A stretch of DNA of 30,972 nt from a virus (IMGVR_UViG_2711768059_000015); one strand, 5' to 3'; counted from the first letter of the stretch, positions 2,451 to 29,198 are shown. Program-made: numbers and translations. Notes: generated from the letters alone by a model not told the origin.

Positions 2451-3278
2451 TTATTTAATCTGGATAAATGGTGTATTGGCACCACTGGTCATGTATTGCG
2501 GCAGTGTACCGTTCCACTTGTTGATGGCTTCCAGCTCCATGACGCCTGGGTTCTGGCGTAGAGCTTCGCCGCGTAAACGAATGGCATCGGCTTCTGCCTG
2601 GGCTTTTGTTCGAATGGCATCAGCCTGTCCGGCAGCTTCCGCACGTAGCATGTTGGCCTCCGCTTCACGTTGCTTGACTTCCTGCTCGCGCTGCAGGGTT
2701 TTCTGGTTTGCCGTGACTTTGGCGTTAATGCTGTCGATAACGGTTGGAGGGTATTCCGGTTTACCTACATAAGAGAGGCTCATTACCTGAATGCCGATGG
2801 GTGTCATCTCTTCCTGAATGTCTTTAAGTGCGGCATCCAGTAGTTCAGACTTGCCGCCGTCGATAAATTTGTCAGTGGTCATTTTGCTGGCCAGCCGATT
2901 GAGTGCGTCGGCAATTTTCTGGCGCAGGTCAGTGTCGGTAATGTCATCCACGCCTTTGCGGTAGGTCTGAAACACCGTGGTAACTTTGGATGGATCAACT
3001 TTGTAGGCCACACCGATGTGATAGCCGATGGTTGTACCGTCACTCATCTGGAAACTGAACGGTTCATCGTAGGTCTTCATTTGTTTGAAGGTGGGGAAGA
3101 TATAAACTTCAGTATTCCAGCCAGTCCAGTAGCGACCAACACCGACCACCTCACCGACACCTTTGTCGTCGCCTAGTTTATTTACCTTGATGCCAACATT
3201 ACCTGGTTCAACGCGATCGCAACCGACAAGGCCAATAGTCGGCAGAACAATGGCTAAAGCAAAAATAATTTTTTTCAT
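2451..3278 (-). CDS. SPFH/band-7 (prohibitin/HflK-C-like) domain lipoprotein
   Basis: 275 aa. N-terminal signal peptide with lipobox (LVGC). Central band-7 core and a C-terminal Ala/Glu/Arg/Gln-rich coiled coil typical of SPFH proteins. AAGGA RBS. Its start overlaps the upstream small membrane gene's stop (ATGA). Confidence 0.8.
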   Translation of the reverse strand: MKKIIFALAIVLPTIGLVGCDRVEPGNVGIKVNKLGDDKGVGEVVGVGRYWTGWNTEVYIFPTFKQMKTYDEPFSFQMSDGTTIGYHIGVAYKVDPSKVTTVFQTYRKGVDDITDTDLRQKIADALNRLASKMTTDKFIDGGKSELLDAALKDIQEEMTPIGIQVMSLSYVGKPEYPPTVIDSINAKVTANQKTLQREQEVKQREAEANMLRAEAAGQADAIRTKAQAEADAIRLRGEALRQNPGVMELEAINKWNGTLPQYMTSGANTPFIQIK

Positions 3279-3463
3279 CTTTTATCCTTAGTGAAAGAAA
3301 GACCCTTGTAAATGGCATAAATGCAGGGCGGGGTCAGAAACGCCAGTGCAAAGCCAGAAATAACTGCTATCGTATCCTTCATGGATATAAGGAACGGAAC
3401 GAATAATCCGTAAATGCATGCGATAATTGCCAGTAAAATTACTATTTTGAAATACAGTCTCAT
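3275..3463 (-). CDS. Small two-helix membrane protein (62 aa), translationally coupled to the SPFH gene
   Basis: Strongly hydrophobic sequence with two predicted TM helices. Stop overlaps the SPFH start (ATGA). Confidence 0.55.
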   Translation of the reverse strand: MRLYFKIVILLAIIACIYGLFVPFLISMKDTIAVISGFALAFLTPPCIYAIYKGLSFTKDKR

Positions 3464-3486
3464 TGGTCTGTGGTATCCCGATATTT

Positions 3487-3594
3487 TTAACCGACTGACA
3501 GCGCAATAAAGAGAATAATGATTTCAGTTAGTGTCAGCACTGTGGCAAGGATTAAAATCAGTTTTACTCTGTTTAATTCACGGTTGCTTTTCAT
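3487..3594 (-). CDS. Tiny single-TM membrane peptide (35 aa)
   Basis: Not in track. ATG at 3594, stop at 3487-3489. Product MKSNRELNRVKLILILATVLTLTEIIILFIALSVG (charged N-terminus then one hydrophobic helix). Candidate -10 TATAAT lies about 30 nt upstream on the minus strand. Confidence 0.35.
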   Translation of the reverse strand: MKSNRELNRVKLILILATVLTLTEIIILFIALSVG

Positions 3595-3639
3595 ATAAAC
3601 GGTTAGTAAAAAATGGAAGAATTATAGTCTTCTTAATAT

Positions 3640-4221
3640 TTAATGTGTCACTGGCGCTTCTGGCATACCATGAGTATTCAGGTCGTTAATCATTTCATCC
3701 AGAAGGAGTTCAAGCCCTTCGCGCCCCATAGCAGAGAGAATGAAACCATTATCAGGATCTGCGATGAGCATTTTTTGATAGAGAAACAGAACTCGCCCCA
3801 TGCCTTCAGTTTCGCCATATTTTTCAATAAATCCCCATTCGACATGGTTTTGCAGGGCAATGCGAAGTGGTCCTGGGTATATACTCATGCAACCATGTTT
3901 CCCCTTATAAATAACTGCGCGATCTGTCGTCCCGTTATCGTTAGGGATATCAATAGTGCCGTTCTTGTTTTCCTCTTCACTGATAAACGTTGCCACATAC
4001 AGCCAGCGCCATTGAGCAACCTTCATATCGACTGAAAATCTTCCCAGGAATCTGGCATCATCGGCTTCAGCAATACATTGCATGATTCTTAAGCCGTGCC
4101 AGTATGGATTGTCGTATTCACCATCATTAAGTCGCTGTACGGCCTCAACATAATCAATGGTTGTATTGTCAATTTTTATGCCATGAGCTGTCGCTTCTGG
4201 TTTGAATTCAAAATTGTTCAT
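3640..4221 (-). CDS. Hypothetical protein (193 aa), AT-rich accessory gene
   Basis: Track ORF 3640-4296 trimmed to the ATG at 4221 (MNNFEFKPE...) with an AAGGA RBS. Start overlaps the stop of the upstream 62-aa gene (ATGA). No family recognised. Confidence 0.6.
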   Translation of the reverse strand: MNNFEFKPEATAHGIKIDNTTIDYVEAVQRLNDGEYDNPYWHGLRIMQCIAEADDARFLGRFSVDMKVAQWRWLYVATFISEEENKNGTIDIPNDNGTTDRAVIYKGKHGCMSIYPGPLRIALQNHVEWGFIEKYGETEGMGRVLFLYQKMLIADPDNGFILSAMGREGLELLLDEMINDLNTHGMPEAPVTH

Positions 4222-4406
4222 AATGTTTGTTCCTTTGCTGGTGGAATAATCGTGTAACCCGCTCTTTTTGCCATCCACAGAAATGTATCCATGCAACCAA
4301 CGAATTCATTATCCAACAGATGTTTTGAGTAAATTACTTCACCATTTTCAATGGTTAGCAACACTCTTACTTTTTTATGTGTTATGTTCTGTTGTTTTTC
4401 TTTCAT
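4218..4406 (-). CDS. Hypothetical small protein (62 aa), coupled to the downstream 193-aa gene
   Basis: ATG at 4406 with a GGGAGA RBS. Overlapping stop/start with the next gene. Confidence 0.5.
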   Translation of the reverse strand: MKEKQQNITHKKVRVLLTIENGEVIYSKHLLDNEFVGCMDTFLWMAKRAGYTIIPPAKEQTL

Positions 4407-4410
4407 TTAT

Positions 4411-4524
4411 TTATCTCCCATATGCTTTGCGCAAATACAGGTTGGCTATATGAAGATAAGAATCTCCATGTTGTGCAATGAGGCAGGCAGTTTTATACGA
4501 TGCCTTATTTTTCAGGAAAGCCAT
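4411..4524 (-). CDS. Possible small basic protein (37 aa)
   Basis: Not in track. ATG at 4524 with an AGGAG RBS 8 nt upstream; stop at 4411-4413. Product MAFLKNKASYKTACLIAQHGDSYLHIANLYLRKAYGR. Could equally be an untranslated leader. Confidence 0.2.
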   Translation of the reverse strand: MAFLKNKASYKTACLIAQHGDSYLHIANLYLRKAYGR

Positions 4525-4610
4525 AACATAATCTCCTGCGAATAAAGGTTGCAACAATCCCCGGCGATAAAACCGTAATAAACATTCAGTGAATATTTAT
4601 TGTTATTGCG

Positions 4611-4802
4611 CTAATTCTTTTTGACTGCAGCTTTCGAATATTCACATGCAAAAGACAGGATTTCATCACCTAATGTTTTTGCATTCTGATTATTTGACAT
4701 CTGTAAAACTTGCGCAGCGCACAACAGACTATGAATGTTTATTGCAAATGAATCCGATGCCAGACAAATACCTTCGAAATTGTCATGGATATTACTATTC
4801 AC
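4611..4802 (-). CDS. Small protein (63 aa) paralogous to the N-terminal domain of the adjacent HTH protein
   Basis: GTG start at 4802 with AAGGAG RBS, the upstream gene's TAA stop, then a 5-nt spacer. The segment DSFAINIHSLLCAAQVLQ...LGDEILSFACEYS aligns with DSFALNIANLLSAVRTFH...LGIEVMEFIHEYA of the 150-aa neighbour at roughly 40% identity (by eye). Confidence 0.55.
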   Translation of the reverse strand: MNSNIHDNFEGICLASDSFAINIHSLLCAAQVLQMSNNQNAKTLGDEILSFACEYSKAAVKKN

Positions 4803-4807
4803 TGCTG

Positions 4808-5260
4808 TTACTCCTTTGCAGCATTGCTACCAGTCAATAACCACATCGGATCGCAGCCAAGAATATTTGCCAGTGGGATAAGCATACTGATGGTTGGTTC
4901 ATACTCTCCGCTCTCCCACTGGATGATGATTTCTTCATCAAGAGCGAGCAGCCTGGCGAGTTCGGCTGTTGTTAAGCCGCAGGCTTCGCGTTGGGTGCGA
5001 AGGTTAACCAGCCAGCTTTCAGGGAAGGATTGTTTTTGTTGTGCAGGAGAAGCAGCAGATAGAGCATATTCATGGATAAATTCCATTACCTCAATGCCCA
5101 GTTCCTTTGAGCGAGCACAATCCAGAAGATGGAATGTGCGTACAGCACTTAGCAAATTTGCAATATTTAATGCAAAGGAATCAAGTTCTAAGCCCTTAAG
5201 CGTAACACAGCCGCAGTTGATAAAATTAGTTGTTTCTGGAGTTGCTTTTAGTGTCTTCAT
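4808..5260 (-). CDS. Two-domain protein: unrecognised N-terminal domain plus C-terminal XRE-type helix-turn-helix
   Basis: 150 aa. C-terminal LRTQREACGLTTAELARLLALDEEIIIQWESGEYEPTISMLIPLANILGCDP matches the HTH_XRE pattern. First gene downstream of the candidate PL promoter; GGTGGA RBS. Confidence 0.7.
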   Translation of the reverse strand: MKTLKATPETTNFINCGCVTLKGLELDSFALNIANLLSAVRTFHLLDCARSKELGIEVMEFIHEYALSAASPAQQKQSFPESWLVNLRTQREACGLTTAELARLLALDEEIIIQWESGEYEPTISMLIPLANILGCDPMWLLTGSNAAKE

Positions 5261-5290
5261 ATATCCACCAACAATTTTAAATTGAATTAA

Positions 5291-5307
5291 ATCAAGTTAT
5301 AATTGAT
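5291..5307. promoter_or_regulatory. Candidate OL operator (17-bp ATCAA-N7-TTGAT palindrome)
   Basis: ATCAAGTTATAATTGAT matches ATCAAGTTAATATTGGT in the cI-cro intergenic region at 14 of 17 positions. Lies just downstream of the -10 of the candidate PL. Confidence 0.45.
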
Positions 5308-5313
5308 GGTGCG

Positions 5314-5342
5314 ATATTATGCTTTGGGAAATAGGCTGTCAA
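5314..5342 (-). promoter_or_regulatory. Candidate sigma-70 early-left promoter (PL-like)
   Basis: Minus strand reads TTGACA, 17-nt spacer, TAATAT (near-consensus -35 and -10). Located between the cI terminator and the first leftward gene. Confidence 0.5.
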
Positions 5343-5370
5343 GAAAAAATTGATATCGTATATTTCAGGC

Positions 5371-5394
5371 AGAAAAAAACGGGCAAAGCCCGTT
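5371..5394 (-). terminator. Rho-independent terminator downstream of cI
   Basis: Minus strand reads AACGGGC-TTT-GCCCGTT followed by a 7-T run, 12 nt after the cI stop. Confidence 0.55.
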
Positions 5395-5405
5395 AAAATC
5401 AAAGA

Positions 5406-6095
5406 CTAACCAAATCTGTTTATGTTGAATGGTACTGATGAGATCACTTTAGACTGGATATAAAGCAGAGCTAACCCCTCTTTTTCGATGCTCCATGGTT
5501 GATAATTGGGGTTATCAGATAACACCATGATTTTGCTTCCAATTTTTTGAAGCCTTTTCACGTAGCATTCTCCATCAAAACAAAATGCATAAATACCATC
5601 GCCATCAAAATAAGTTACTGTCTTATCAAGAAAAAGAAGGTCGCCAGGTGAGATTGTGGGAGCCATACTGTCTCCTCTGGCGTTACCTATTTCTATATTT
5701 TTGAATGCCCGATTTCCAACAAGACGTCGGGCATATTCAGGATCAAGTTCTATTGAGCGCACTACATCTATCAAGTCACCACGGACATGAGTTCCATCAC
5801 CGCAACTAAACTCAACATCAAGGACATTAAACACGACGCTATCTGTTCTTGTCTGGTGTTTCTCTTGCGAGGAAAAGGTTGGTGAGGAGTCTTCACCTAA
5901 GAACCAGGATTGTGGATAACCGCTAATCTCTGATAAATGCGCGAGCTTATCACTCCGTGGAAATGTTTTTCCTGTTGTCCAGTACTGCACTGATTGCGCA
6001 CTCACACCTAACTTGCGGGCCAGTTGAGCCTGAGTCCATCCTTTTGCTTTCAGCATCGCGGCTATTCGATTTTCCGTGTTTTTGACGTTCTTCAT
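5406..6095 (-). CDS. cI: CI-type prophage repressor (N-terminal XRE HTH, C-terminal S24 LexA-like peptidase domain)
   Basis: 229 aa. N-terminal HTH (GWTQAQLARKLGVSAQSVQYW). C-terminal S24 autocleavage domain with the catalytic Ser in GDSMAPT and a downstream Lys. Divergent from a Cro-like gene. Confidence 0.9.
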   Translation of the reverse strand: MKNVKNTENRIAAMLKAKGWTQAQLARKLGVSAQSVQYWTTGKTFPRSDKLAHLSEISGYPQSWFLGEDSSPTFSSQEKHQTRTDSVVFNVLDVEFSCGDGTHVRGDLIDVVRSIELDPEYARRLVGNRAFKNIEIGNARGDSMAPTISPGDLLFLDKTVTYFDGDGIYAFCFDGECYVKRLQKIGSKIMVLSDNPNYQPWSIEKEGLALLYIQSKVISSVPFNINRFG

Positions 6096-6228
6096 GACCA
6101 GGTCCTGTGGGTTTCTTTACAAGGATAAATCTTTACTTGATTTTAGTGTATTCGATCCTTTTGCAACTTGCATGTTAATTTAATCTTGATATATTCTTGT
6201 GTTATCAAGTTAATATTGGTGTTTTGCT
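6096..6228. promoter_or_regulatory. Divergent cI-cro promoter/operator region (PRM/PR with OR sites)
   Basis: 133-bp AT-rich intergenic region between divergent repressor genes. Candidate PR is TTGATA (6186-6191), spacer, TAATAT (6211-6216). Palindromic elements include CTTGATA-N11-TATCAAG (6185-6209) and the operator-like 17-mer at 6204-6220 overlapping the -10. Confidence 0.6.
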
Positions 6229-6528
6229 ATGAAAGGAAATGATTACGACGTACTTCGCGCATTAATTGCGCAAAATGCCATTGCACGAAACCTTGGTGTA
6301 ACTCCGCAAGCGGTGAATCAGTGGTTTTCAAAAAACACAATTCCTGCTCGTTTTGTTTTACGCGTATGTGAAGTAGTTGCATGGAAGGTCACGCCACATG
6401 GCTTAAGGCCAGATCTTTATCCTCACCCTGAAGATGGAATTCCTGATTCGTTACGCAAAATTTCAAATCCAAGCCTAGCGCGCACGGAAGATGGGCAGAG
6501 TGATTCATCAGAAATGTCCACGCGATGA
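6229..6528 (+). CDS. cro: Cro-like repressor (YdaS/Cro HTH family)
   Basis: 99 aa, divergent from cI. N-terminal HTH (LGVTPQAVNQWFS) typical of the YdaS/Cro-type family. Confidence 0.75.
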   Translation: MKGNDYDVLRALIAQNAIARNLGVTPQAVNQWFSKNTIPARFVLRVCEVVAWKVTPHGLRPDLYPHPEDGIPDSLRKISNPSLARTEDGQSDSSEMSTR

Positions 6529-6604
6529 ACGGTTACTGAACGAAAAAAGAAAAGCCGGGCCGCACTCCGTCAGCCCGACTTATTCTGATTAGTAAGGGGA
6601 TTTC

Positions 6605-7459
6605 ATGATGATCAATAAACAAAAAATAGTCAACCCTGAAAACTTGCCAGTTATTGAGTGGCAGGGAGTACGTGTAGTTACCACCGAAACGTTGGCGGCG
6701 GGATATGGAACAACGCCAATCCGTATACAACAGAACTACATTCGAAACGAAGATCGTTTCGTTGAGGGTAAACACTTTTTCAAAATCAGCGGTGATGAGC
6801 TGAAATCTTTCCGACTATCTTTTAGCGAGTCGGTTAATAAACATACAACATCACTTGTCCTCTGGACAGAACGCGGCGCTGCCCGCATGTCAAAAATCGT
6901 CGATACAGACGAGGCCTGGTCGTTCTTCGAAAAAATGGAGCAGGCGTATTTTCGTAAAGCAACGCCTTCTTCAAACACTATTCCAGACTTTGACGATCCG
7001 ATCGCTGCTGCTGAAGCGTGGATTGAAGCCAAAAAATCCGAACGCCTTGCTCTCGGGTATGCAGAGCGTCAGGCTCGCTACATCAGCAAACTCGAAAGCC
7101 ATCTCGCCGATGGCATCACTCCTGTGCAGTTCTGCAAACAACTCAACGGTGTAAACACTCGTCAGATTAATGCGTTCCTTGAAGAGCGTAACTGGCTGTA
7201 TGACGACCGTCCGGAGGCTATGTATCCGCGCTGGCGTGTAAAAGCGTATGCACGTGACCAATACCTGACTGAGCGTTCTGGGCAGGTTGAGCAGGAAAAC
7301 GGGGAAATGCGCGAGATTTTCAAACCACTCCTGAAGAAAAAAGGTGCCGCCTGGTTATATCGCCATTATCTGAACGGTGAACTACCGATGAAGAAAACAT
7401 GGGATGGGCTGTTTACCCATAACACTGAGCTCGCGAATCTTTTACAGGAGAACAAATAA
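6605..7459 (+). CDS. Antirepressor-like protein (N-terminal ORF6N domain, C-terminal KilA-C/Ant domain)
   Basis: 284 aa with AAGGGGA RBS. N-terminal region carries the ORF6N-type LWTERGA motif; the C-terminal half resembles the phage antirepressor Ant/KilAC domain. Confidence 0.75.
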   Translation: MMINKQKIVNPENLPVIEWQGVRVVTTETLAAGYGTTPIRIQQNYIRNEDRFVEGKHFFKISGDELKSFRLSFSESVNKHTTSLVLWTERGAARMSKIVDTDEAWSFFEKMEQAYFRKATPSSNTIPDFDDPIAAAEAWIEAKKSERLALGYAERQARYISKLESHLADGITPVQFCKQLNGVNTRQINAFLEERNWLYDDRPEAMYPRWRVKAYARDQYLTERSGQVEQENGEMREIFKPLLKKKGAAWLYRHYLNGELPMKKTWDGLFTHNTELANLLQENK

Positions 7460-7668
7460 TGCAAACCAAGACGTGTGTAACTGGTGATGTCGATCTGAAA
7501 CCTTGCCCGTTCTGCGGAAATCCGGAAGTACAACTCATTGAGGTGAAATATTTTCTGGATGGCGATGATGGTTATTACGTCGCATGTACTTGCTGTAACG
7601 CAAACCAGATCCCTGATTCGAAAGAACGTGCTGTTCATGACTGGAATCAGCGCGAAAACGCGGATTGA
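7459..7668 (+). CDS. lar: Lar-family restriction alleviation protein
   Basis: 69 aa with CPFCG and CTCC cysteine pairs characteristic of Lar-family zinc-ribbon proteins. Start overlaps the upstream stop (TAATG). Confidence 0.7.
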   Translation: MQTKTCVTGDVDLKPCPFCGNPEVQLIEVKYFLDGDDGYYVACTCCNANQIPDSKERAVHDWNQRENAD

Positions 7669-7685
7669 CGGCGAGTAGGTACAAA

Positions 7686-8537
7686 ATGATCCGCAACCAA
7701 CATATTGATTCTGCAATTTCGGGACGTTACACTGTTCCAGCACCTTATAAAGCGGGGGCCGGGCGTGGAAACCCGAAATTCAATATAGAGCACAACCGCG
7801 CTCATGCGGTTTTTTCGTGTCATGAGCATCGTTACGCCCAAATTATGGTGGGGCGTGCAGGGCCAACTTCGGTTGGGCCGGGTTCTATGTTGACCGGTAT
7901 TTCCACCCCTGTACGTCTCACCACCTATATGGTCGTGGAAAGCCTTGGTGGTGAGTTCATTGAATTCAACATAGGGGCTGTCACCATGACTACTCTCCCA
8001 ACCCTCTCTCAACCTGAAATCACGATTATCAATGGTCGTGTTGTCACCACATCTCTTGCAGTTTCTAATTACTTTACTAAACGGCATGAGCGGGTTTTAG
8101 ACAGAATTCGAAACCTCGAATGTTCCGCTGAATTTACTGAACACAATTTTGTGTTAAGTGAATACACCGACGCATCAGGCCGCAAACTTCCCTGCTACCA
8201 AATCACCCGCGACGGTTTTGCGTTTCTTGCCATGGGCTTCACTGGCAAACGTGCAGCCAGGTTCAAAGAGGCATACATCAACGCCTTTAACCAGATGGAG
8301 AAGAATTTATCTGGTGGTGACGCGGTTGATATGTCAGCTGTTGCACGAAACGCCAGAGGCGTATACCTGCATTTGCGTGAAATCCATCAAATCTGGAAAA
8401 GCCAGCTTTACCCCATGCTTAAGGCCGTTGAATCTCCGCTGGCGAGCAAGCTGTATGACCGTGTAGGAGATGCTGTTTTTGGCGCTGCACTTGTTGATTC
8501 CAGACTTAATGGTTCTGACAAGGAGGCGCACCCATGA
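7686..8537 (+). CDS. rha: Rha-family phage regulatory protein; start uncertain (ATG 7686 or ATG 7986)
   Basis: The Rha-like domain starts at the ATG at 7986 (MTTLPTLSQPEITIINGRVVTTSLAVSNYFTKRHERVLDRIRNL). The frame stays open upstream to 7686, but that 100-aa extension does not look like a typical domain. The track's 7665 start is a TTG. Confidence 0.6.
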   Translation: MIRNQHIDSAISGRYTVPAPYKAGAGRGNPKFNIEHNRAHAVFSCHEHRYAQIMVGRAGPTSVGPGSMLTGISTPVRLTTYMVVESLGGEFIEFNIGAVTMTTLPTLSQPEITIINGRVVTTSLAVSNYFTKRHERVLDRIRNLECSAEFTEHNFVLSEYTDASGRKLPCYQITRDGFAFLAMGFTGKRAARFKEAYINAFNQMEKNLSGGDAVDMSAVARNARGVYLHLREIHQIWKSQLYPMLKAVESPLASKLYDRVGDAVFGAALVDSRLNGSDKEAHP

Positions 8538-8758
8538 TTCGCCGCATCGTTAATTCCCTGTATCACCGATACAACCGTTGCCCCCGTGTGGGGCAGTGGT
8601 TCGCCACCAGCAACGGTCACGTTCTGCGGGTTTGCCTAGTCAACGCTGAAAGCCAGAAAGTCGTGTGCGAACTACAGGGGCGTAGCTACACCATCAGTTA
8701 CCCGCTGGCGGTATTTCTGTCTGGAAAAATGTTTAAGCGTCTGGGAGGTGCCGTGTGA
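8534..8758 (+). CDS. Hypothetical protein (74 aa)
   Basis: Overlapping start/stop (ATGA) with rha, and its stop overlaps the replication gene start. No family recognised. Confidence 0.45.
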   Translation: MIRRIVNSLYHRYNRCPRVGQWFATSNGHVLRVCLVNAESQKVVCELQGRSYTISYPLAVFLSGKMFKRLGGAV

Positions 8759-9747
8759 GCCGTTACGCTCCTACACCTGAAGTTATGGCTATTGGCCAAC
8801 TCAATATTTCTGGCAATGTCACACCAGCGAACTGGTGGAAACATATTCGGCTACCAAGTGGTCGTCCGGATGCGACTGCCATTGCGCTGCTTTCAGAGAT
8901 TGTTTACTGGTACCGCCCGACAGAAGTCAGGGATGAGCATACCGGGGCTTTACTGGGATATCGCAAGCGTTTTCAGGGTGACAAGCTGCAAAGAAGCTAT
9001 CAGGCGTTTGCTGAACAGTTTGGCTTTGGGAAAAGGGAAACCGCAGATGCGCTGAAGCGTCTTCGTGATGCTGGGTTTATTACTCTGGATTTACGTACGG
9101 TGGAAATGCTAGACGGGGTGAAATGCAGCAATATTTTGTTTGTCGGGATCAACCCACAGGCAATTGCTGCCATCACCACACCTTCTTCTGTTTCGCCAGA
9201 AAGTAACAGCAATAACTCAATCAGCGATACAGCTATTACGTTAAAACGGAACACCCCCCAACGTCATAACGGAACAGGGGATACGCCGAATGTTGATACA
9301 AATACAGAGATTACTACAGAGATTACAACGGAGACTAAAAACACTATTGGAGCATCCGCTGACGCGTCTGCACCAGCGCGTTCTGCCCGACAGGAATATT
9401 CACCGGAATTTGAACAGGCCTGGCAGGAATATCCCAAACGTGCTGGTGGTAATTCCAAGTCAGCAGCCTTCAAAGCCTGGAAAGCCCGTATCAGGGAGGG
9501 AATAAAACCGGAGACCATGCTTGATGGTGTGAAGCGGTATGCCGCCTGGGTACGTGCTACAGGAAATACCGGCACACAGTTCGTGAAGCAGGCTGCGACG
9601 TTCTTTGGACCCGATCGTCACTTCGAAGATTACTGGCAACAGCCAGCCGCTCCCGGAGGTGGGCGACAGCGACAGGTCGATGTCCTGGCTGGCCTGGGAG
9701 CCATGTCTGACAAATTCGGTAAATCCAGTGACAAACTGACATTCTGA
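8755..9747 (+). CDS. Phage replication initiation protein (O-like replisome organiser)
   Basis: 330 aa. GTG start with GGAGG RBS 6 nt upstream. The C-terminal segment (EYSPEFEQAWQEYPKRAGG...FKAWKARIREG) is a motif I associate with phage replication initiators. Located directly upstream of DnaC- and DnaB-like genes. Contains internal tandem repeats. Confidence 0.7.
   Translation: MSRYAPTPEVMAIGQLNISGNVTPANWWKHIRLPSGRPDATAIALLSEIVYWYRPTEVRDEHTGALLGYRKRFQGDKLQRSYQAFAEQFGFGKRETADALKRLRDAGFITLDLRTVEMLDGVKCSNILFVGINPQAIAAITTPSSVSPESNSNNSISDTAITLKRNTPQRHNGTGDTPNVDTNTEITTEITTETKNTIGASADASAPARSARQEYSPEFEQAWQEYPKRAGGNSKSAAFKAWKARIREGIKPETMLDGVKRYAAWVRATGNTGTQFVKQAATFFGPDRHFEDYWQQPAAPGGGRQRQVDVLAGLGAMSDKFGKSSDKLTF
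9301..9336. repeat. Three tandem 12-bp repeats inside the replication initiator gene (candidate ori iterons)
   Basis: ACAGAGATTACT / ACAGAGATTACA / ACGGAGACTAAA, encoding TEITTEITTET. Confidence 0.5.
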
Positions 9748-24155: not shown

Positions 24156-24860
24156 ATGTCCTCTAATTTTGAGCGTTCGCAACTGACGAAAATTATGATT
24201 TCGTCTGCACCGGTAACAGCAGAAACCCTGGATTCTGCCAGCTATCTTGGCCTGAGCTGTACAATCAAAGAGGTGCAGTTTACCGCAGGACAAAAGCAGG
24301 ATATTGATGTCACCACGCTGTGTTCTGTTGAGCAGGAAAATATTAACGGTCTTGGTGCCGCGTCAGAGATTTCCATGTCAGGCAACTTTTACCTCAATGC
24401 TGCCCAGAACGCGTTGCGCAGTGCCTATGACAATGACACCACGTATGGCTTTAAAGTTATTTTTCCGTCAGGAAACGGATTTACCTTTATGGCAGAGGTG
24501 CGTCAGCATACCTGGTCTGCAGGAACCAATGGTGTTGTGGCTGCAACGTTTTCCCTGCGCCTGAAAGGTAAACCTGTGCTGACGACAGAGCCGCTGAAAG
24601 TGAAGGTCGATTTAAACAGCACGCTGCAGGTTTCTGCCGGAGCGAAACTCGAAATGGTGGTTGAGGCTGCCGGTGGTGTGCCGCCTTATTCTTATGTCTG
24701 GAAGAAAGGTAGTTCTCCTGTTTCCGGACAGACGGCGGCAACGTTCAGTAAGGCATTGGCAGTATCCGGTGATGCGGGCGCATATACCTGCGAGATTTCT
24801 GATTCAGCAAGCCCGGTTAACAAAGTGACCTCCACTTCCTGCACTGTAACCGTCAGTTAA
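24156..24860 (+). CDS. Major tail protein (gpV-like) with C-terminal Ig-like domain
   Basis: 234 aa with AGGAGA RBS. The C-terminal 90 aa look like a bacterial Ig-like domain (PPYSYVWKKG...GAYTCEISD). Confidence 0.8.
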   Translation: MSSNFERSQLTKIMISSAPVTAETLDSASYLGLSCTIKEVQFTAGQKQDIDVTTLCSVEQENINGLGAASEISMSGNFYLNAAQNALRSAYDNDTTYGFKVIFPSGNGFTFMAEVRQHTWSAGTNGVVAATFSLRLKGKPVLTTEPLKVKVDLNSTLQVSAGAKLEMVVEAAGGVPPYSYVWKKGSSPVSGQTAATFSKALAVSGDAGAYTCEISDSASPVNKVTSTSCTVTVS

Positions 24861-24874
24861 TGAGGATGGGTGTG

Positions 24875-25246
24875 ATGACTAAAAATATCCGTAATCTGGC
24901 TCTGGCAACGATGTCGGGGTTTCGCCATAAAACTGTTGATGTGCCTGAATGGGAAGGGGCAACGGTTGTATTACGGGAACCTTCTGCAGAAGCCTGGTTG
25001 CGCTGGCAGGAGATCGTTAAAGCAAAAGATGATGAGACACCGTTATCCGTTGCGGAGCGCGCCCGCCGAAATCTGGAGGCAGATGTTGAACTGTTCATTG
25101 ATGTTCTGTGTGATACCGGACTGCAACCTGTATTTTCAGAGGATGATCGTGAACAGGTGATTGCCGTGTATGGCCCGGTGCATGCGCGGCTTCTTCGGCA
25201 GTCTCTGGAACTGATCAGTGATGCCGGCGAGGTTAAAAAAAAGTAG
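24875..25246 (+). CDS. G: Tail assembly chaperone G
   Basis: ATG at 24875 with GAGG RBS. Ends in the slippery run GTT AAA AAA AAG TAG. Directly precedes the T-frame ORF and the tape measure. Confidence 0.7.
   Translation: MTKNIRNLALATMSGFRHKTVDVPEWEGATVVLREPSAEAWLRWQEIVKAKDDETPLSVAERARRNLEADVELFIDVLCDTGLQPVFSEDDREQVIAVYGPVHARLLRQSLELISDAGEVKKK
25237..25243 (+). other. Programmed -1 ribosomal frameshift slippery heptamer (A AAA AAG) for the G-T fusion
   Basis: The heptamer sits at the last sense codons of G. The -1 frame continues open (V-A-L-P-G-M...) into the T ORF, which ends at 25548. Confidence 0.6.
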
Positions 25247-25257
25247 CGCTTCCGGGG

Positions 25258-25548
25258 ATGCGTTTTCTGATGATGCTGGCACTCAGGATGGGGCGCACAT
25301 TGTCAGAGTTACGCCGGGAAATGTCCGCATCAGAAATCATGATGTGGGCAGAATTTGACAGGTTCAGCCCGCTGGGGGACGAACGGGCTGATATCCGGGC
25401 TGCCCAGATTGTTTCAGCTGTTTACGGTGCGCAGGGTGTCAAAGTACCACTGAATGATGCGCTTCTTCAGTGGGAGCATGAATCAGAAGAAAATAAATGC
25501 GATGATCCATTTATTGGATTAGAGGTTGCTCTAATGTCTTCACTATAA
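25258..25548 (+). CDS. T: Tail assembly protein T frame (expressed as G-T fusion by -1 frameshift)
   Basis: 96-aa ORF in the -1 frame relative to G, open from the slippery site at 25243. No convincing independent RBS. Confidence 0.6.
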   Translation: MRFLMMLALRMGRTLSELRREMSASEIMMWAEFDRFSPLGDERADIRAAQIVSAVYGAQGVKVPLNDALLQWEHESEENKCDDPFIGLEVALMSSL

Positions 25549-25606
25549 GATAATTTTTTAATCGTTTTGAAATTGAATGCTTTACTCAAAGTCAGGAGGA
25601 TTAATC

Positions 25607-25948
25607 ATGAGAAAATCAGTGGTGACATTAGCTTGTTTGTTTTTTATTAGTGCATGTAAGCCATCAGATAATTATGTTATTTCTTTAGGGGAAAACTTAG
25701 TTAAAGATAAGCTTATTGATCCTGATAGTGCAAAATTTAATTCTTTTTTTCATAAGTCAGGTGATTTATATGGTTATGTTTGTGGTGATGTTAATTCAAA
25801 AAACACGTTTGGTGGATATACAGGGAAAAAGCCATATTTTGTTTATTTGGAAGTTGTGGATGGAAAAGTTAAGAGTCATGGGACTGTAACAATTGTTAAT
25901 GATCATGATCCAAGCAGTATGGAAAAATATAAGTTGTTTTGCCAATAA
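25607..25948 (+). CDS. AT-rich lipoprotein moron inserted between the G/T chaperones and the tape measure gene
   Basis: ATG at 25607 with AGGAGG RBS. Signal peptide with lipobox (FISAC). About 113 aa. Strongly AT-rich against GC-rich neighbours. Followed by its own terminator. Confidence 0.7.
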   Translation: MRKSVVTLACLFFISACKPSDNYVISLGENLVKDKLIDPDSAKFNSFFHKSGDLYGYVCGDVNSKNTFGGYTGKKPYFVYLEVVDGKVKSHGTVTIVNDHDPSSMEKYKLFCQ

Positions 25949-25960
25949 TTATCATCTTAA

Positions 25961-25984
25961 AAAACCGCAGAAGCGGTTTTTTTA
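25961..25984 (+). terminator. Rho-independent terminator after the lipoprotein moron
   Basis: AACCGC-AGAA-GCGGTT followed by a TTTTTTT run. Confidence 0.6.
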
Positions 25985-25997
25985 TGGGGTAAAGTAA

Positions 25998-28900
25998 ATG
26001 GCGACATTACGTGAGCTGATTATTAAAATCTCGGCAAATTCCCGGTCATTCCAGTCAGAGATCTCCCGGGCTTCGCGTATGGGGCAGGATTACTACCGTA
26101 CCATGCAGAACGGAGGCCGGCAGTCCGCTGCTGCATCCCGTGAAATGCGGCGTGCACTGGCAGAAGTGACGGATCAGATAAATACAGCTAAATCTTCGGC
26201 ACTGAATATGGCGGGGGCATTTGCCGGGGCTTTTGCTACCGGTCATCTTATTTCTCTCGCCGATGAGTGGAATTCAGTAAATGCCCGTCTGAAGCAGGCC
26301 TCACAGTCCACTGATGATTTTCAGGTATCACAACGTGAATTAATGGCAATCAGCCAGAGAACGGGAACGGCGTTTTCTGATAACGCCAGCCTTTTTGCCC
26401 GCTCTGCAGCTTCCATGCGGGAGTATGGCTACAGTTCTGAGGAGGTACTGAAAGTCACCGAGGCTATCTCCACGGGCCTGAAATTATCCGGTGCCAGTGC
26501 AGTAGAAGCCAGTTCGGTGATCACGCAGTTCAGTCAGGCACTGGCGCAGGGAGTGCTGCGCGGTGAAGAATTTAACTCTGTGAATGAGAACGGCGATCGT
26601 GTTATTCGTGCGCTGGCTGCGGGAATGGGTGTTGCCCGTAAGGATCTGAAGGCCATGGCGGATAACGGAAAGTTGACCGCCGATAAGGTTGTTCCTGCAC
26701 TGATTAGTCAGCTTGGGGCGTTGCGTGATGAATATGCAGCAATGCCTGATACGGTTTCATCCTCTGCAACCAAAGTTGAAAACGCCTTTATGGCCTGGGT
26801 TGGTGGTGCGAACGAAGCAAGCGGAGTGACGAAGACGCTCTCCGGTGTGCTGAATGGTATTGCAGGCAATATTGACACTGTGGCAACCGCTGCCGGTGCT
26901 CTGGTTGCCGTCGGGGTAGCCCGATATTTTGGCAATATGGCATCTTCTGCTGGATCTGCAACTGCCGGATTAATTACTGCAGCCAGAAACGAAGTAGCTC
27001 TTGCGGAAGCGCAGCTCCGGGGGACGCAGATAGCAACCGCCAGGGCGCGTGCGGCGGTTTATCGTGCGCAACAGGCGGTCGCGGCTACCCGTGGTACTGA
27101 AAGACAGGCAGCCGCAGAAGCGAAACTGGCTGCTGCCCAGGCATCACTTACCCGTAATATTGCGGCCAGAACAGCAGCACAGACAACGCTGAATACTGTC
27201 ACGTCAGTGGGGAGTCGTTTATTAAGTGGTGCGCTGGGGCTGGTTGGTGGTGTGCCGGGACTCGTCATGCTGGGGGCGACGGCCTGGTACACGATGTATC
27301 AGAATCAGGAGCAGGCCAGAGAATCTGCACGCCAGTATGCCGCAACAATCGACGAAATTCGCCAGAAAACGTCGGCAATGTCGCTTCCTGAAGCGTCAGA
27401 TAATGAGGAAAAGACGCGGCAGGCACTGGAGGAACAAAATCGCCTGATTAACGAACAGGAAGGAAAAATTCGCGGACTGAAAAATCAAATTGCTGATTAT
27501 CAACGTTGGCTTGATGAAAGTTCGCAGAGTGGTTCTGGTGCTGAAATCATCCTTAAAGGGCTTGCAGAAGCAACAAATCAACTGGCAGTTGAACAGTCCC
27601 GTCTCACACAAATGCAGGGCAAAGCGCAATCCATTCAGGATGTGCTTGCCGGGCTGGAGGAGCGACGAGTGGCGTTGATCCGTCAACAGGCAGCGGAACA
27701 AAACAAAGCGTATCAGTCCCTGTTGATCATGAATGGGAAGCATACCGAGTTTAATCGCCTTCTCGGGCTTGGTAATGAATTACTTCAGCAGCGACAGGGG
27801 CTGGTGAATGTACCGTTACGGCTACCACAGGCAACTCTGGATGATAAACAGCAGACCGCACTGAATAACAGCAAGCGCGAACTGGCTCTGTCCCGCCTTA
27901 AGGGGGAAGCGCGTGAGCGTGCCCGACTGGGCTATGCTGCGGATGATCTCGGCTTTGTGGGAGAGGCGTATCGGACAGCCAGACAGAATTATATCAATAA
28001 CTCACTGGATGCCTGGCGAAATAACCAGGCAAATAAACCCAAAGCGCATAAAAAGACCGAAGCGGAAAAAACAGAAGATATTTATAAACGGCTGATTAAA
28101 CAGCAAAAAGAACAGATAGCACTGGCAGGGCAGAATACTGAACTGGCTAAGATGAAATATCAGGTCAGTCAGGGCGAATTATCAACCCTGTCAGAAGCGC
28201 AGAAAAAAACGCTTTTGCAGAATGCAGCACTCATCGACCAGAAAAAGATTCGTGAGCAGCTTGCCGCGTATGAAAGCAGTCTGGCGGACAGTAATGCCAG
28301 TGCCCGGGCATCTGACGACGCGCAGTTGCTGGGATATGGTGAAGGCTCACGGATGCGTGAACGACTCCAGGAAATGTGGAGTATCCGGCATGAGTTTGAG
28401 CAGAAAAATAACGAGCTGCTGAGACAGTATCAGGCCGGAGAAATTGAAGAAGCCCTGTGGAAACAGGAGAAAGAACTGAATAAAAAATATCTGGAAGAGC
28501 GTCTCAGCGATCAGCAGGATTATTATGCAAAGGCCGATGCTTTACGTAATAACTGGAATGCCGGACTCCAGGAGGGACTGACCAACTGGGCAGACAGTGC
28601 CACCGATTATGCTTCACAGGCGGCAGATGCTGTTGTTTCCACGATGGACGGGCTGGTATCAAATATTTCCGATGCACTGGCCGGGAATGTTGTGGAGTGG
28701 AGGAACTGGGGGAGTTCAGTTCTCCGGGAAGTTTCAAAAATTCTGATGAATGCGGCCATTGTTAACGGACTGAAGTCACTCTCCGGTGCCGGAGGGTGGC
28801 TTGGTACGGTCGGCGGATGGATTTCGGGGGCGGTGGCAAACGCAAAAGGTGGTGTTTACACATCGGCAAATCTGAGTGCTTACAGTAACACTATTGTGGA

Positions 28901-29198
28901 TACACCGACGTATTTTGCTTTTGCGAAAGGTGCCGGGCTGATGGGCGAGGCCGGGCCTGAAGCTATCATGCCACTGACACGGGCAGCGGACGGCTCTCTT
29001 GGGGTCAGAGCCATTGGCAATGTGAATGGTGGCGGTGGATTTGTTTATTCTCCCGTGTATCACATTAGCATTCAGAATCAAGGGAGCAATGGCGAGATAG
29101 ATACGCGCTCAGCCAGGGGACTGGTGGATCTGATCGACAGCAGGGTTGTGTCAATTATGCAGTCATCGCGTCGGGATGGAGGATTATACAGTGCCTGA
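25998..29198 (+). CDS. H: Tail tape measure protein (lambda gpH-like)
   Basis: 1066 aa, Ala/Gln-rich coiled coil. Position after G/T and before M, L, K. Confidence 0.9.
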   Translation: MATLRELIIKISANSRSFQSEISRASRMGQDYYRTMQNGGRQSAAASREMRRALAEVTDQINTAKSSALNMAGAFAGAFATGHLISLADEWNSVNARLKQASQSTDDFQVSQRELMAISQRTGTAFSDNASLFARSAASMREYGYSSEEVLKVTEAISTGLKLSGASAVEASSVITQFSQALAQGVLRGEEFNSVNENGDRVIRALAAGMGVARKDLKAMADNGKLTADKVVPALISQLGALRDEYAAMPDTVSSSATKVENAFMAWVGGANEASGVTKTLSGVLNGIAGNIDTVATAAGALVAVGVARYFGNMASSAGSATAGLITAARNEVALAEAQLRGTQIATARARAAVYRAQQAVAATRGTERQAAAEAKLAAAQASLTRNIAARTAAQTTLNTVTSVGSRLLSGALGLVGGVPGLVMLGATAWYTMYQNQEQARESARQYAATIDEIRQKTSAMSLPEASDNEEKTRQALEEQNRLINEQEGKIRGLKNQIADYQRWLDESSQSGSGAEIILKGLAEATNQLAVEQSRLTQMQGKAQSIQDVLAGLEERRVALIRQQAAEQNKAYQSLLIMNGKHTEFNRLLGLGNELLQQRQGLVNVPLRLPQATLDDKQQTALNNSKRELALSRLKGEARERARLGYAADDLGFVGEAYRTARQNYINNSLDAWRNNQANKPKAHKKTEAEKTEDIYKRLIKQQKEQIALAGQNTELAKMKYQVSQGELSTLSEAQKKTLLQNAALIDQKKIREQLAAYESSLADSNASARASDDAQLLGYGEGSRMRERLQEMWSIRHEFEQKNNELLRQYQAGEIEEALWKQEKELNKKYLEERLSDQQDYYAKADALRNNWNAGLQEGLTNWADSATDYASQAADAVVSTMDGLVSNISDALAGNVVEWRNWGSSVLREVSKILMNAAIVNGLKSLSGAGGWLGTVGGWISGAVANAKGGVYTSANLSAYSNTIVDTPTYFAFAKGAGLMGEAGPEAIMPLTRAADGSLGVRAIGNVNGGGGFVYSPVYHISIQNQGSNGEIDTRSARGLVDLIDSRVVSIMQSSRRDGGLYSA

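What the first reader, a model, noticed from the sequence alone, without database searches (positions are those of the whole stretch)
25577..25984. Lipoprotein moron inserted within the tail morphogenesis module
A roughly 113-aa lipoprotein gene with its own strong RBS and its own terminator lies between the G/T tail chaperones and the tape measure gene, a junction that is normally uninterrupted. It is strongly AT-rich in a GC-rich structural operon. Phage-encoded outer-membrane lipoproteins such as Cor of phi80/N15 and Llp of T5 block the phage's own receptor for superinfection exclusion, and lambda Bor is a lipoprotein conferring serum resistance. This gene is a candidate for a similar lysogenic-conversion or exclusion function, but I do not recognise its sequence.
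Basis: partly seen in the sequence, partly recalled or inferred. Interest (0 to 1): 0.6.

Follow-up and report, generated by a model that had tools for sequence, protein, structure and literature searches.

The report
Lipoprotein cargo gene before tape measure
An E. coli prophage carries a foreign, AT-rich gene for a small outer-membrane lipoprotein in the classic "moron" slot between the tail chaperone and tape-measure genes; the gene is real, optional and under selection, it belongs to a large uncharacterised phage protein family, and its function has not been shown.

Summary
Window 25607-25948 (+) encodes a 113-aa protein with a canonical lipoprotein signal peptide (MRK…FFISA|C17, Lys at +2). 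It has an AGGAGG ribosome-binding site, and a hairpin with a T-run follows it. It lies between G/T (Pfam PF06222/PF06223) and the tape measure gene. GC is 30% against about 52% in the flanks.

It is optional cargo. 857 of 5426 complete E. coli genomes have the same junction empty and 18 have it filled. dN/dS is 0.08-0.13.

This junction is the archetypal moron slot, where HK97 gene 15 sits. The hairpin is also present in the empty and the gp15-filled junctions, so it is not private to this gene.

The protein matches phrog_2320 (unknown function). It has no Pfam, NCBIfam or PADLOC match, and it resembles Cor, Llp and Bor only in the signal peptide. The confident AF2 model is a small cystatin/NTF2-like α+β domain.

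ES18 gp20 is a relative in the same slot. Other relatives occupy accessory slots in many prophages, mostly next to the tape measure gene.

Superinfection exclusion at the envelope is the best guess, at about 0.35, and is untested. This is a new member of a known kind and of moderate interest.

The parts
24860..25246 (+). Tail assembly chaperone G
   Evidence: PF06222 Phage_TAC_1, 2.8e-58; phrog_344
25234..25242 (+). Run of A followed by G (A AAA AAG type) at the end of G; likely -1 frameshift site giving the G-T fusion
   Evidence: Sequence read. The T frame equals the G frame minus 1 (coordinates). The frameshift itself is inferred.
25258..25548 (+). Tail assembly protein T reading frame
   Evidence: PF06223 Phage_tail_T, 3.4e-18; phrog_337/14766
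25478..25997 (+). AT-rich replaced segment (the cassette): the last ~23 codons of T, the spacer, the lipoprotein gene and the hairpin
   Evidence: Nucleotide identity to 'empty' relatives stops after ...CAGTGGGAG inside T and resumes at the hairpin and TMP start. GC is 0.28-0.33 throughout, against 0.51-0.54 outside.
25526..25554 (+). Weak candidate sigma-70 promoter, TTGCTC-17 nt-GATAAT (8 of 12 matches)
   Evidence: Read from the sequence. Both hexamers are conserved in the 93% and 86% alleles. It falls below the threshold of the consensus scan, which found no + strand promoter upstream. Unverified.
25594..25599 (+). Shine-Dalgarno AGGAGG, 7 nt before the ATG
25607..25948 (+). Lipoprotein gene, 113 aa plus stop; member of phrog_2320
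   Evidence: 2e-33 over the full length; dN/dS 0.08-0.13. Identical to RefSeq WP_071605788.1.
25607..25657 (+). Lipoprotein signal peptide MRKSVVTLACLFFISA plus the lipidated Cys17 (codon 25655-25657); Lys at +2
   Evidence: Meets the PS51257 pattern, read from the sequence. A16, C17, K18, P19 and S20 are at least 90% conserved. Aligns to the Bor, Cor and Llp signal peptides. 146 of 244 collected homologues have a lipobox.
25959..25985 (+). Hairpin AAAAAACCGC-AGAA-GCGGTTTTTT followed by a T-run, 14 nt before the TMP start; terminator-like and symmetrical
   Evidence: -15.3 kcal/mol, z -4.45. Equivalent hairpins occur in the empty and HK97 gp15 junctions.
25998..29198 (+). Tail tape measure protein (1066 aa), HK97-type
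   Evidence: RefSeq annotation of the 99.8%-identical prophage. TMP_3 domain on the identical IMG/VR copy.

Best explanation
SHOWN. An AT-rich cassette of about 520 bp (25478-25997) has replaced the short T-TMP spacer of an HK97-like E. coli prophage. It carries one gene for a 113-aa prolipoprotein. The gene is optional: about 2% of E. coli genomes with this tail module have it. It is under purifying selection. It belongs to a very large family of phage-borne proteins of unknown function (phrog_2320; ES18 gp20 is a member), and relatives sit in accessory slots of many unrelated prophages.

INFERRED, step 1. The precursor is exported by Sec, lipidated at Cys17 and cleaved by LspA. [quoted passage not shown] There its 96-residue cystatin/NTF2-like domain, probably stabilised by a Cys59-Cys112 disulfide, faces the periplasm.

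INFERRED, step 2. In lytic growth the gene is read as part of the Q-antiterminated late operon. In the lysogen a weak promoter inside the cassette may drive it, with the hairpin stopping transcription before TMP.

INFERRED, step 3 (the commitment). The protein is a superinfection-exclusion factor that acts in the cell envelope. My preferred version is that it blocks the step after adsorption, when the tail tip and tape measure protein of an incoming siphophage cross the periplasm and cell wall. This is what HK97 gp15 does from the inner membrane in the same genomic slot. I prefer this to masking of one specific receptor.
For: Cassette, optional status and selection.

Lipoprotein features.

Family size and link to phages:
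- 1549 hits and 9824 cluster representatives.
- PHROG hit.
- All 8 genome contexts sampled are prophages.
- Members are AT-richer than their phage in 14 of 14 loci.

The slot is the HK97 gene-15 slot, whose product is an exclusion protein expressed from the prophage (PMC3594210).

Adjacency to TMP:
- In the 80 best IMG/VR loci, the next gene downstream is a tape measure gene in 44 of 77.
- In 8 of the 80 a tape measure gene lies upstream.
- Three unrelated chaperone families flank the slot: Phage_TAC_1/T, DUF6246, and Phage_TAC_4/DUF1799.

A conserved target in the periplasm or cell wall, rather than one receptor, is suggested by:
- the invariant DPxSAxF and NxKNxxGGYxG motifs, shared with Mycobacterium, Gordonia and Rhodobacter phage proteins;
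- fusions to the peptidoglycan-binding SPOR and SH3_3 domains.

A Q antiterminator gene is present in the same prophage (mapped to the window).
Against: - No member of the family has a tested function. Five full-text searches turned up no paper that characterises the family or names ES18 gp20.
- There is no PADLOC match and no similarity of the mature domain to Cor, Llp, Bor or gp15.
- No convincing promoter was found, so expression in the lysogen is unproven.
- Adjacency to TMP may only reflect that the TMP flanks are general cargo slots. The 80 loci are the best-scoring ones and are not phylogenetically independent.
- Strong purifying selection and conservation across phyla fit a housekeeping-type envelope ligand as well as they fit an anti-phage role.
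- The cystatin/NTF2-like fold is generic. No Foldseek hit against PDB has E below 1e-3.
Confidence: 0.35

Rival explanations
1. A host-fitness (lysogenic conversion) factor that is not aimed at phages. The periplasmic lipoprotein would protect or modify the envelope of the lysogen. Examples: an inhibitor or immunity protein against cell-wall-degrading enzymes (lysozymes, colicin or pyocin toxins, type VI effectors), or a Bor-like serum-resistance factor.
- The conserved loop motifs and the reach across phyla point to a conserved ligand.
- Some members are fused to the peptidoglycan-binding SPOR or SH3_3 domains.
- Some members sit next to a polymorphic toxin/immunity cassette (M. abscessus prophages), next to an O-acetyltransferase (PAJU2), or near a Rap1a immunity gene.
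- Purifying selection is strong.
Against: - There is no sequence or profile match to Bor or to any Pfam immunity or inhibitor family.
- The strong bias to positions beside the tape measure gene has no explanation under this model.
Confidence: 0.28
2. A receptor-masking exclusion lipoprotein that works like Cor (phi80, N15, HK022) or Llp (T5). It would bind the periplasmic face of the outer-membrane receptor used by this phage and lock it in a form that cannot bind phage. In the lysogen this blocks superinfection. Late in infection it stops progeny being wasted on cell debris.
For: - It is the same kind of molecule: a small lipoprotein predicted to reach the outer membrane, encoded in a tail-gene region.
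- Llp is described as anchored in the inner leaflet of the outer membrane and binding FhuA (abstracts listed; PMC9586334).
- Being read with the late operon fits protection of progeny.
Against: - The mature domain is unrelated to Cor and Llp; only the signal peptide aligns.
- The gene is not next to the receptor-binding gene. J lies about 6 kb downstream, whereas cor and llp lie close to their receptor-binding genes.
- Homologues sit in phages with different tail-tip modules and in phages of Mycobacterium and Gordonia, which lack these receptors. A receptor-specific binder should not keep the same invariant motifs across these hosts.
Confidence: 0.15
3. A function confined to lytic growth. The gene would be expressed only by read-through of the late operon and would help this phage's own cycle, for example by modulating the envelope or cell wall before lysis. 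It would give the lysogen no phenotype.
For: - No good promoter lies upstream.
- The gene is co-oriented with the late operon and embedded in it.
- Some relatives sit just after lysis genes.
Against: - 98% of E. coli genomes with the same tail module lack the gene, so it is dispensable for the lytic cycle.
- Relatives also lie at prophage ends beside the integrase or after ogr, which are typical sites for genes expressed in lysogens.
Confidence: 0.1
4. A tail structural or assembly component.
For: The only support is its position inside the tail morphogenesis operon.
Against: - The junction is empty in 857 genomes and filled in 18, with otherwise 95-99% identical flanks.
- The Sec/lipoprotein signal sends the protein out of the cytoplasm, where tails assemble.
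- The same family occurs in P2-like myophage prophages outside the tail genes.
Confidence: 0.02

Closest known systems
HK97 gene 15 moron (gp15, a YebO-like inner-membrane superinfection exclusion protein)
   Same: It occupies exactly the same slot, between the G/T tail chaperone genes and the tape measure gene of an HK97-type tail operon. A hairpin plus T-run lies just before the TMP start. It is optional cargo with deviant composition. Its product goes to the envelope. gp15 is expressed from the prophage and blocks genome entry without touching the receptor (PMC3594210).
   Different: The protein is unrelated: hhalign probability 0.2%. gp15 is 62 aa and inserts in the inner membrane. This protein is a 113-aa lipoprotein predicted to reach the outer membrane, with a folded 96-aa periplasmic domain. 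No phenotype is known for it.
Salmonella phage ES18 gp20 ('possible moron; function unknown')
   Same: It belongs to the same protein family: hhalign probability 99.5%, E 1.4e-22, with the same DPESAKF and VNAKNSYGGYTG motifs. It is also a lipoprotein (MKK…LFLTA|C). It occupies the same slot directly upstream of the tape measure gene and has its own annotated terminator.
   Different: It is 151 aa, with an extra linker of about 35 residues after the lipobox. Identity is only about 40% over the core. The upstream chaperone genes are different, and two further morons (gp18, gp19) share the slot.
Cor (phi80, N15, HK022) and Llp (T5) exclusion lipoproteins
   Same: They are small phage-encoded lipoproteins with the same type of signal peptide. 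They are encoded among tail genes and are a plausible functional model for envelope-level exclusion.
   Different: Their mature parts are about 60 aa and unrelated in sequence. Their genes lie near the receptor-binding genes, not beside the tape measure gene. They are specific for FhuA, whereas this family spans phages of hosts that lack FhuA.
Lambda Bor / Iss serum-resistance lipoprotein
   Same: It is a prophage-encoded outer-membrane lipoprotein moron, and the signal peptides align.
   Different: The mature domain shows no similarity (no Pfam Bor hit). bor lies next to the lysis genes on the opposite strand.
Ltp of Streptococcus phage TP-J34 and Spackle of T4 (from my own knowledge, not tested here)
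   Same: Both are envelope-located exclusion proteins that act after adsorption. Ltp is a lipoprotein reported to target the tape measure protein of incoming phages (the family is introduced in PMC3952083). Spackle is a periplasmic inhibitor of the tail lysozyme. They show how the preferred mechanism could work.
   Different: There is no sequence match to any solved structure at E of 10 or below, apart from chance hits. The folds differ. Ltp acts in a Gram-positive host.

Membership tests
Moron (accessory transcription unit in a phage operon, sensu Juhala/Hendrix; definition quoted in PMC3594210) | Present in some genomes and absent from otherwise near-identical genomes at the same junction | tested here: met
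   18 E. coli genomes are filled and 857 have the contiguous empty junction. 10 of the 11 phage records that match have both flanks about 300 bp apart instead of 701 bp. The APEC O1 junction is empty.
Moron | Base composition differs from the surrounding genes | tested here: met
   GC is 0.30 against 0.51-0.54. The same trend holds in 14 of 14 homologous loci.
Moron | Own promoter | tested here: inconclusive
   The consensus scan finds no + strand site upstream. Only a weak, conserved TTGCTC-17-GATAAT candidate exists at 25526-25554.
Moron | Own terminator | tested here: inconclusive
   A stable hairpin plus T-run follows the gene. However, an equivalent element is present in the empty and gp15-filled junctions.
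Moron | Expressed from the repressed prophage | not testable with these tools
   This needs RNA-seq or 5' RACE on a lysogen such as E. coli E21845/O/A.
Bacterial lipoprotein (PROSITE PS51257; Lgt/LspA/Lnt pathway) | Basic n-region, hydrophobic h-region, and a lipobox [LVI][ASTVI][GAS]C with the Cys at position 15-35 | tested here: met
   MRK-SVVTLACLFF-ISA-C17. The lipobox and the +1 to +4 residues CKPS are at least 90% conserved. 146 of 244 homologues have a lipobox. The region aligns with the Bor, Cor and Llp signal peptides.
Bacterial lipoprotein | Outer-membrane sorting: no Asp at +2 | tested here: met
   +2 is Lys. K is the commonest +2 residue in the family (51 of 146) and D is rare (10). 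Localisation itself is inferred from the +2 rule.
Bacterial lipoprotein | Actual lipidation and LspA cleavage | not testable with these tools
   This needs globomycin sensitivity, palmitate labelling or mass spectrometry.
phrog_2320 (PHROGs, unknown function) | Significant full-length match to the family HMM | tested here: met
   E 2e-33, residues 1-113 on profile positions 19-138 of 171.
Cor / Llp superinfection-exclusion lipoproteins | Homology of the mature domain | tested here: not met
   hhalign aligns residues 1-19 only. No annotated PHROG family matches.
Cor / Llp | Inactivation of the FhuA receptor | not testable with these tools
   This needs adsorption and ferrichrome-uptake assays.
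Bor / Iss | Homology of the mature domain | tested here: not met
   hhalign aligns residues 1-19 only. There is no Pfam hit at E of 1 or below.
HK97 gp15 / YebO family | Sequence homology; a small inner-membrane protein | tested here: not met
   hhalign probability 0.2%. This protein is a lipoprotein with a folded soluble domain. Only the genomic slot is shared.
Known anti-phage defence systems (PADLOC-DB v2) | Match to any defence protein model | tested here: not met
   0 families at E of 10 or below.
Cystatin / NTF2-like (VirB8-like) fold | A helix packed on a curved antiparallel sheet, with significant structural similarity | tested here: inconclusive

The most novel reading that the evidence does not exclude
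The family (phrog_2320, ES18 gp20 and this gene) would be an unrecognised, very widespread class of phage-borne periplasmic lipoproteins that block phage genome entry after adsorption. They would do this by intercepting the ejected tape measure protein or tail tip, or by inhibiting its passage through the cell wall. That would make them a Gram-negative, outer-membrane-anchored counterpart of Ltp or Spackle. It would also explain why most members are inserted directly beside the tape measure gene in at least three unrelated siphophage tail lineages.
Probability: 0.2. Interest if true: 0.65.

Novelty: new member of a known kind. Interest (0 to 1): 0.4.

Why it matters
Morons are a main source of prophage-encoded phage resistance and virulence traits. 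This one belongs to a family with thousands of members: 9824 cluster representatives at 50% identity, with no Pfam or NCBIfam model. The family recurs in cargo slots of temperate phages of Enterobacterales, Pseudomonas, Acinetobacter, Rhodobacter, Mycobacterium and Gordonia, yet no member has been studied.

A phenotype for a single member would annotate a large block of 'hypothetical' prophage genes. It could also add an envelope-level exclusion mechanism that matters for phage therapy host-range predictions. If no phenotype appears, the locus is just one more example of the long-known HK97 gene-15 moron slot.

Tried and rejected
Searches that found nothing useful:
- Pfam, NCBIfam and PADLOC scans of the protein gave no hits. 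Pfam scans of 94 and 27 family members gave only LPAM_1, SPOR, SH3_3 and stray hits.
- A profile search of PDB sequences gave only chance hits, E 0.25 or worse.
- Rfam on both strands of 25200-26200 gave nothing near the gathering scores.
- No flanking direct repeats mark an insertion. Minus-strand ORFs of 40-49 aa and the minus-strand promoter-like hits in the AT-rich tract were judged spurious.
- Five literature searches found no paper on this family. The Tai (PMC11364771) and Tab (PMC10884400) tail-assembly-blocking systems concern unrelated cytoplasmic proteins encoded elsewhere. Two papers could not be opened.

Ideas rejected:
- Tail structural or assembly protein: the gene is optional and the protein is exported.
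- o-spanin: it is not in a lysis cassette, has no i-spanin partner, and has a folded 96-aa domain.
- Membership of the Cor, Llp, Bor or gp15 families: only the signal peptide aligns, or nothing does.
- The upstream ATG at 25577 as the start: it has no ribosome-binding site, and RefSeq and all homologues start at the MRK/MKK codon.

Full report
**1. What is in the sequence**

The maximal ORF is 25577-25948 on the + strand. The functional start is ATG 25607, 7 nt after AGGAGG at 25594-25599. This gives 113 aa, and RefSeq uses the same start for the identical gene WP_071605788.1 in E. coli E21845/O/A.

The N-terminus MRKSVVTLACLFFISA|C17-KPS has a basic n-region, a hydrophobic core and an I-S-A-C lipobox. 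It fits PROSITE PS51257, as read directly from the sequence. In the 12 closest homologues, A16, C17, K18, P19 and S20 are at least 90% conserved. A profile of 94 family members aligns with lambda Bor, HK022 Cor and T5 Llp over exactly residues 1-19 and nowhere else. That result independently supports the lipoprotein signal and rules out homology of the mature domains.

Lys at +2, not Asp, predicts Lol-dependent transfer to the outer membrane. This rests on the established +2 rule and is an inference.

The neighbouring genes are:
- G (24860-25246, PF06222, 2.8e-58);
- T (25258-25548, PF06223, 3.4e-18);
- a 1066-aa tape measure gene starting at 25998.

G ends in a run of A followed by G, and T is in the -1 frame. 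This is the usual G-T frameshift arrangement.

**2. Composition, boundaries and the hairpin**

GC is 0.304 in the gene, 0.276 in the upstream spacer and 0.31 in the last 71 nt of T. It is 0.51-0.54 in G, the rest of T, and TMP. [quoted passage not shown]

I aligned the window with relatives that lack the gene: phage vB_EcoM-606R7 and the APEC O1 prophage. Identity stops inside T, after ...CAGTGGGAG at about 25477, and resumes at the hairpin and TMP start. The foreign segment is therefore about 25478-25997 and brought its own version of the last ~23 codons of T.

A perfect 10-bp inverted repeat with a 4-nt loop and a T-run lies at 25959-25985. Its folding energy is -15.3 kcal/mol, z = -4.45. 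The consensus terminator scan missed it because the A/T arms absorb the T-run.

An equivalent hairpin precedes the TMP start in the empty junction (AACCGC-TTCG-GCGGTTTTTTTT) and in HK97. It is a fixed feature of this junction, not private to the insert.

No sigma-70-like site reaching 9 of 12 matches lies upstream on the + strand. The best candidate is TTGCTC-17-GATAAT at 25526-25554. It is conserved in two diverged alleles but is weak. An independent promoter is not established.

The same prophage encodes a Q-family antiterminator. Window 9304-30972 is 99.84% identical to that prophage. Late transcription would therefore be expected to read through the hairpin. This is an inference from lambdoid biology.

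**3. It is optional cargo and a real gene**

- 901 of 5426 complete E. coli genomes carry this G/T module.
- 857 have the contiguous empty T|TMP junction.
- Only 18 carry the lipoprotein, always at this junction and in two allele groups: 11 at 99% identity or more, and 7 at 92.9%.
- 10 of the 11 matching phage records have both flanks about 300 bp apart instead of 701 bp.
- Between alleles, dN/dS is 0.08-0.13, and most amino-acid changes fall in the signal peptide.
- The exact protein occurs on 698 public contigs and is always named 'hypothetical protein'.

These results dispose of the 'conserved structural component' alternative. So does the export signal, since tails assemble in the cytoplasm.

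**4. The slot is the classical moron slot**

HK97 gene 15, the gene for which the word 'moron' was coined, lies between the tail chaperone genes and the tape measure gene, followed by a terminator (PMC3594210). Its 62-aa product is an inner-membrane protein expressed from the prophage. It blocks genome entry of HK97-like phages without touching the receptor (PMC3594210).

It is wrong as a statement about phage biology. gp15 is unrelated to the present protein (hhalign probability 0.2%).

**5. The protein family**

Annotation and size:
- The protein matches phrog_2320 (unknown function) at 2e-33 over its full length.
- It has no Pfam, NCBIfam or PADLOC match.
- A profile search found 1549 proteins in the 90%-clustered database.
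- It also found 9824 representatives of 50% clusters, of which 531 have E of 1e-10 or better.
- None carries a Pfam domain for this region.

Conserved residues:
- D38-P39-x-S41-A42-x-F44.
- C59-G-x-V-N63-x-K65-N66-x-x-G69-G-Y71-x-G73.
- C112.

C59 and C112 are probably disulfide-bonded. This is an inference; I had no access to the model coordinates.

Structure:
- An AF2 model built on 94 sequences is confident (pLDDT 89.4, pTM 0.77).
- Its layout is helix 21-33, four antiparallel strands (43-50, 55-63, 75-84, 87-91), then helix 102-111.
- Foldseek finds nothing in PDB below E 1e-3.
- Among viral models it finds only uncharacterised proteins, such as a 'Lipoprotein' of Gordonia phage Sidious and a Rhodobacter phage protein.
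- Three of 27 longer members are fused to a SPOR domain and one to SH3_3. Both are peptidoglycan-binding modules.

**6. Where relatives sit**

- ES18 gp20 is a clear family member (hhalign 99.5%, E 1.4e-22) and also a lipoprotein (…LFLTA|C). It lies directly upstream of the ES18 tape measure gene and was annotated 'possible moron; function unknown'.
- Homologues of 48-86% identity in Citrobacter and other enterobacterial prophages are at the same T|TMP junction, although the tail-tip modules downstream differ.
- Other members lie in these slots:
  - between K and I (Fraca, AUS531phi, Klebsiella 48ST307);
  - between TMP and M (Pantoea; an E. coli lambda-like prophage);
  - after ogr at the end of P2-like prophages (SEN4/5, Kluyvera);
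  - after lysis genes or beside an O-acetyltransferase (PAJU2);
  - next to a polymorphic toxin cassette in M. abscessus prophages.
- All eight genome contexts I sampled are prophages.
- In 14 of 14 loci the gene is AT-richer than its phage.
- In the 80 best IMG/VR loci, the next gene downstream is a tape measure gene in 44 of 77.
- The upstream gene in those loci is a chaperone-type protein (DUF6246 21, Phage_TAC_1 12, T 2), a tape measure C-terminus (8), K (8) or P2 gpD (6).
- A third chaperone lineage (Phage_TAC_4/DUF1799) also has a member in the pre-TMP slot.

At least 52 of the 80 loci are therefore adjacent to the tape measure gene. These loci are the top-scoring ones and share ancestry, so the count is suggestive and not a statistic.

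**7. How it most likely works**

Shown: this is an acquired, optional, selected gene for a protein with a lipoprotein export signal, from a phage-cargo family, in a slot known to hold an exclusion gene.

Inferred:
- processing by Lgt and LspA;
- anchoring in the outer membrane, facing the periplasm;
- expression with the late operon, and possibly from a weak internal promoter in the lysogen.

The commitment (about 0.35): the protein is an envelope-level superinfection-exclusion factor.

I favour a block after adsorption, at the stage when the tail tip and tape measure protein cross the periplasm and cell wall, over masking of one receptor. The reasons are:
- the family keeps the same invariant loop motifs in phages of hosts that share no outer-membrane receptors;
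- some members are fused to peptidoglycan-binding domains;
- members cluster beside tape measure genes rather than beside receptor-binding genes;
- the same slot in HK97 holds an entry blocker.

The main rival (about 0.28) is a factor that benefits the host and is not aimed at phages, for example an inhibitor or immunity protein against enzymes that attack the cell wall. That reading fits the inhibitor-like fold and the conserved target equally well. Cor/Llp-type receptor masking (about 0.15) and a function confined to lytic growth (about 0.10) remain possible. A structural role is effectively excluded.

**8. Comparison with known systems and verdict**

By position and logic, the closest known case is the HK97 gene 15 moron. 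By homology, it is ES18 gp20, which is uncharacterised. By molecule type, the closest are Cor, Llp and Bor, but the protein fails their membership test because only the signal peptide aligns.

The finding is a new member of a known kind: a moron in the archetypal moron slot, from a family already catalogued as a PHROG of unknown function.

Its value is as an entry point to a very large unstudied family of phage lipoproteins, and the experiments needed are simple. I set interest at 0.4. The most novel reading not excluded is a widespread periplasmic injection-blocking lipoprotein class linked to the tape measure protein. I give that a probability of about 0.2 and an interest of about 0.65 if true.

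Noticed in passing
window 2451-3278 (-): A second predicted lipoprotein in the same prophage. The 275-aa ORF begins MKKIIFALAIVLPTIGLVG|C and has an SPFH/Band 7 domain (PF01145, 6e-31). It lies leftward of the CI-like repressor and on the same strand, so it may be expressed in the lysogen.
   Followed up: partly
window 3251-6400: An AT-rich early/immunity region (minimum GC 0.33). It holds a CI-like repressor (5406-6095 -, HTH plus Peptidase_S24), an HTH protein (4808-5260 -), a 218-aa ORF with no Pfam match (3640-4296 -) and a Cro-like ORF (6229-6528 +).
   Followed up: partly
window 25234-25242: A run of eight A followed by G at the end of G, with T in the -1 frame. This is the expected G-T programmed frameshift site.
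   Followed up: no
window 6111-9304 versus 9304-30972: The late region and part of the early region (9304-30972) are 99.84% identical to a prophage of E. coli E21845/O/A (NZ_CP076272). The stretch 6111-9304 matches only in rearranged pieces of 95-99% identity, which marks a mosaic boundary near 9304.
   Followed up: no
window 25959-25985; L017 2196-2221; L016 1899-1923: A terminator-like hairpin directly upstream of the tape measure start codon is kept whether the junction is empty, holds gp15 or holds the lipoprotein. The stem bases are similar and the loops differ. It may serve as a regulatory element of the late operon, and perhaps as the right-hand anchor for cassette exchange.
   Followed up: partly
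IMG/VR loci L054-L108 (for example L072, L078, L081): 21 of 80 family loci have a DUF6246 protein immediately upstream and a TMP_3 tape measure gene downstream. DUF6246 is therefore probably the tail-chaperone-position gene of another siphophage lineage. A few loci carry Fic, Sel1, Imm_superinfect or Rap1a genes beside the lipoprotein, which suggests small islands with several cargo genes.
   Followed up: no
L001 (phage Fraca) 4001-4348: The deposited annotation of the Fraca homologue starts at 4079 and so cuts off the signal peptide. tblastn aligns all 113 residues from 4001. Family members are probably often mis-started in phage records.
   Followed up: no
window 25914-25983 (+): A sub-threshold Rfam match to isrK, an Hfq-binding sRNA (17.6 bits against a gathering score of 50, E 0.34). 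It overlaps the 3' end of the gene and the hairpin, and the hairpin probably drives the match.
   Followed up: no
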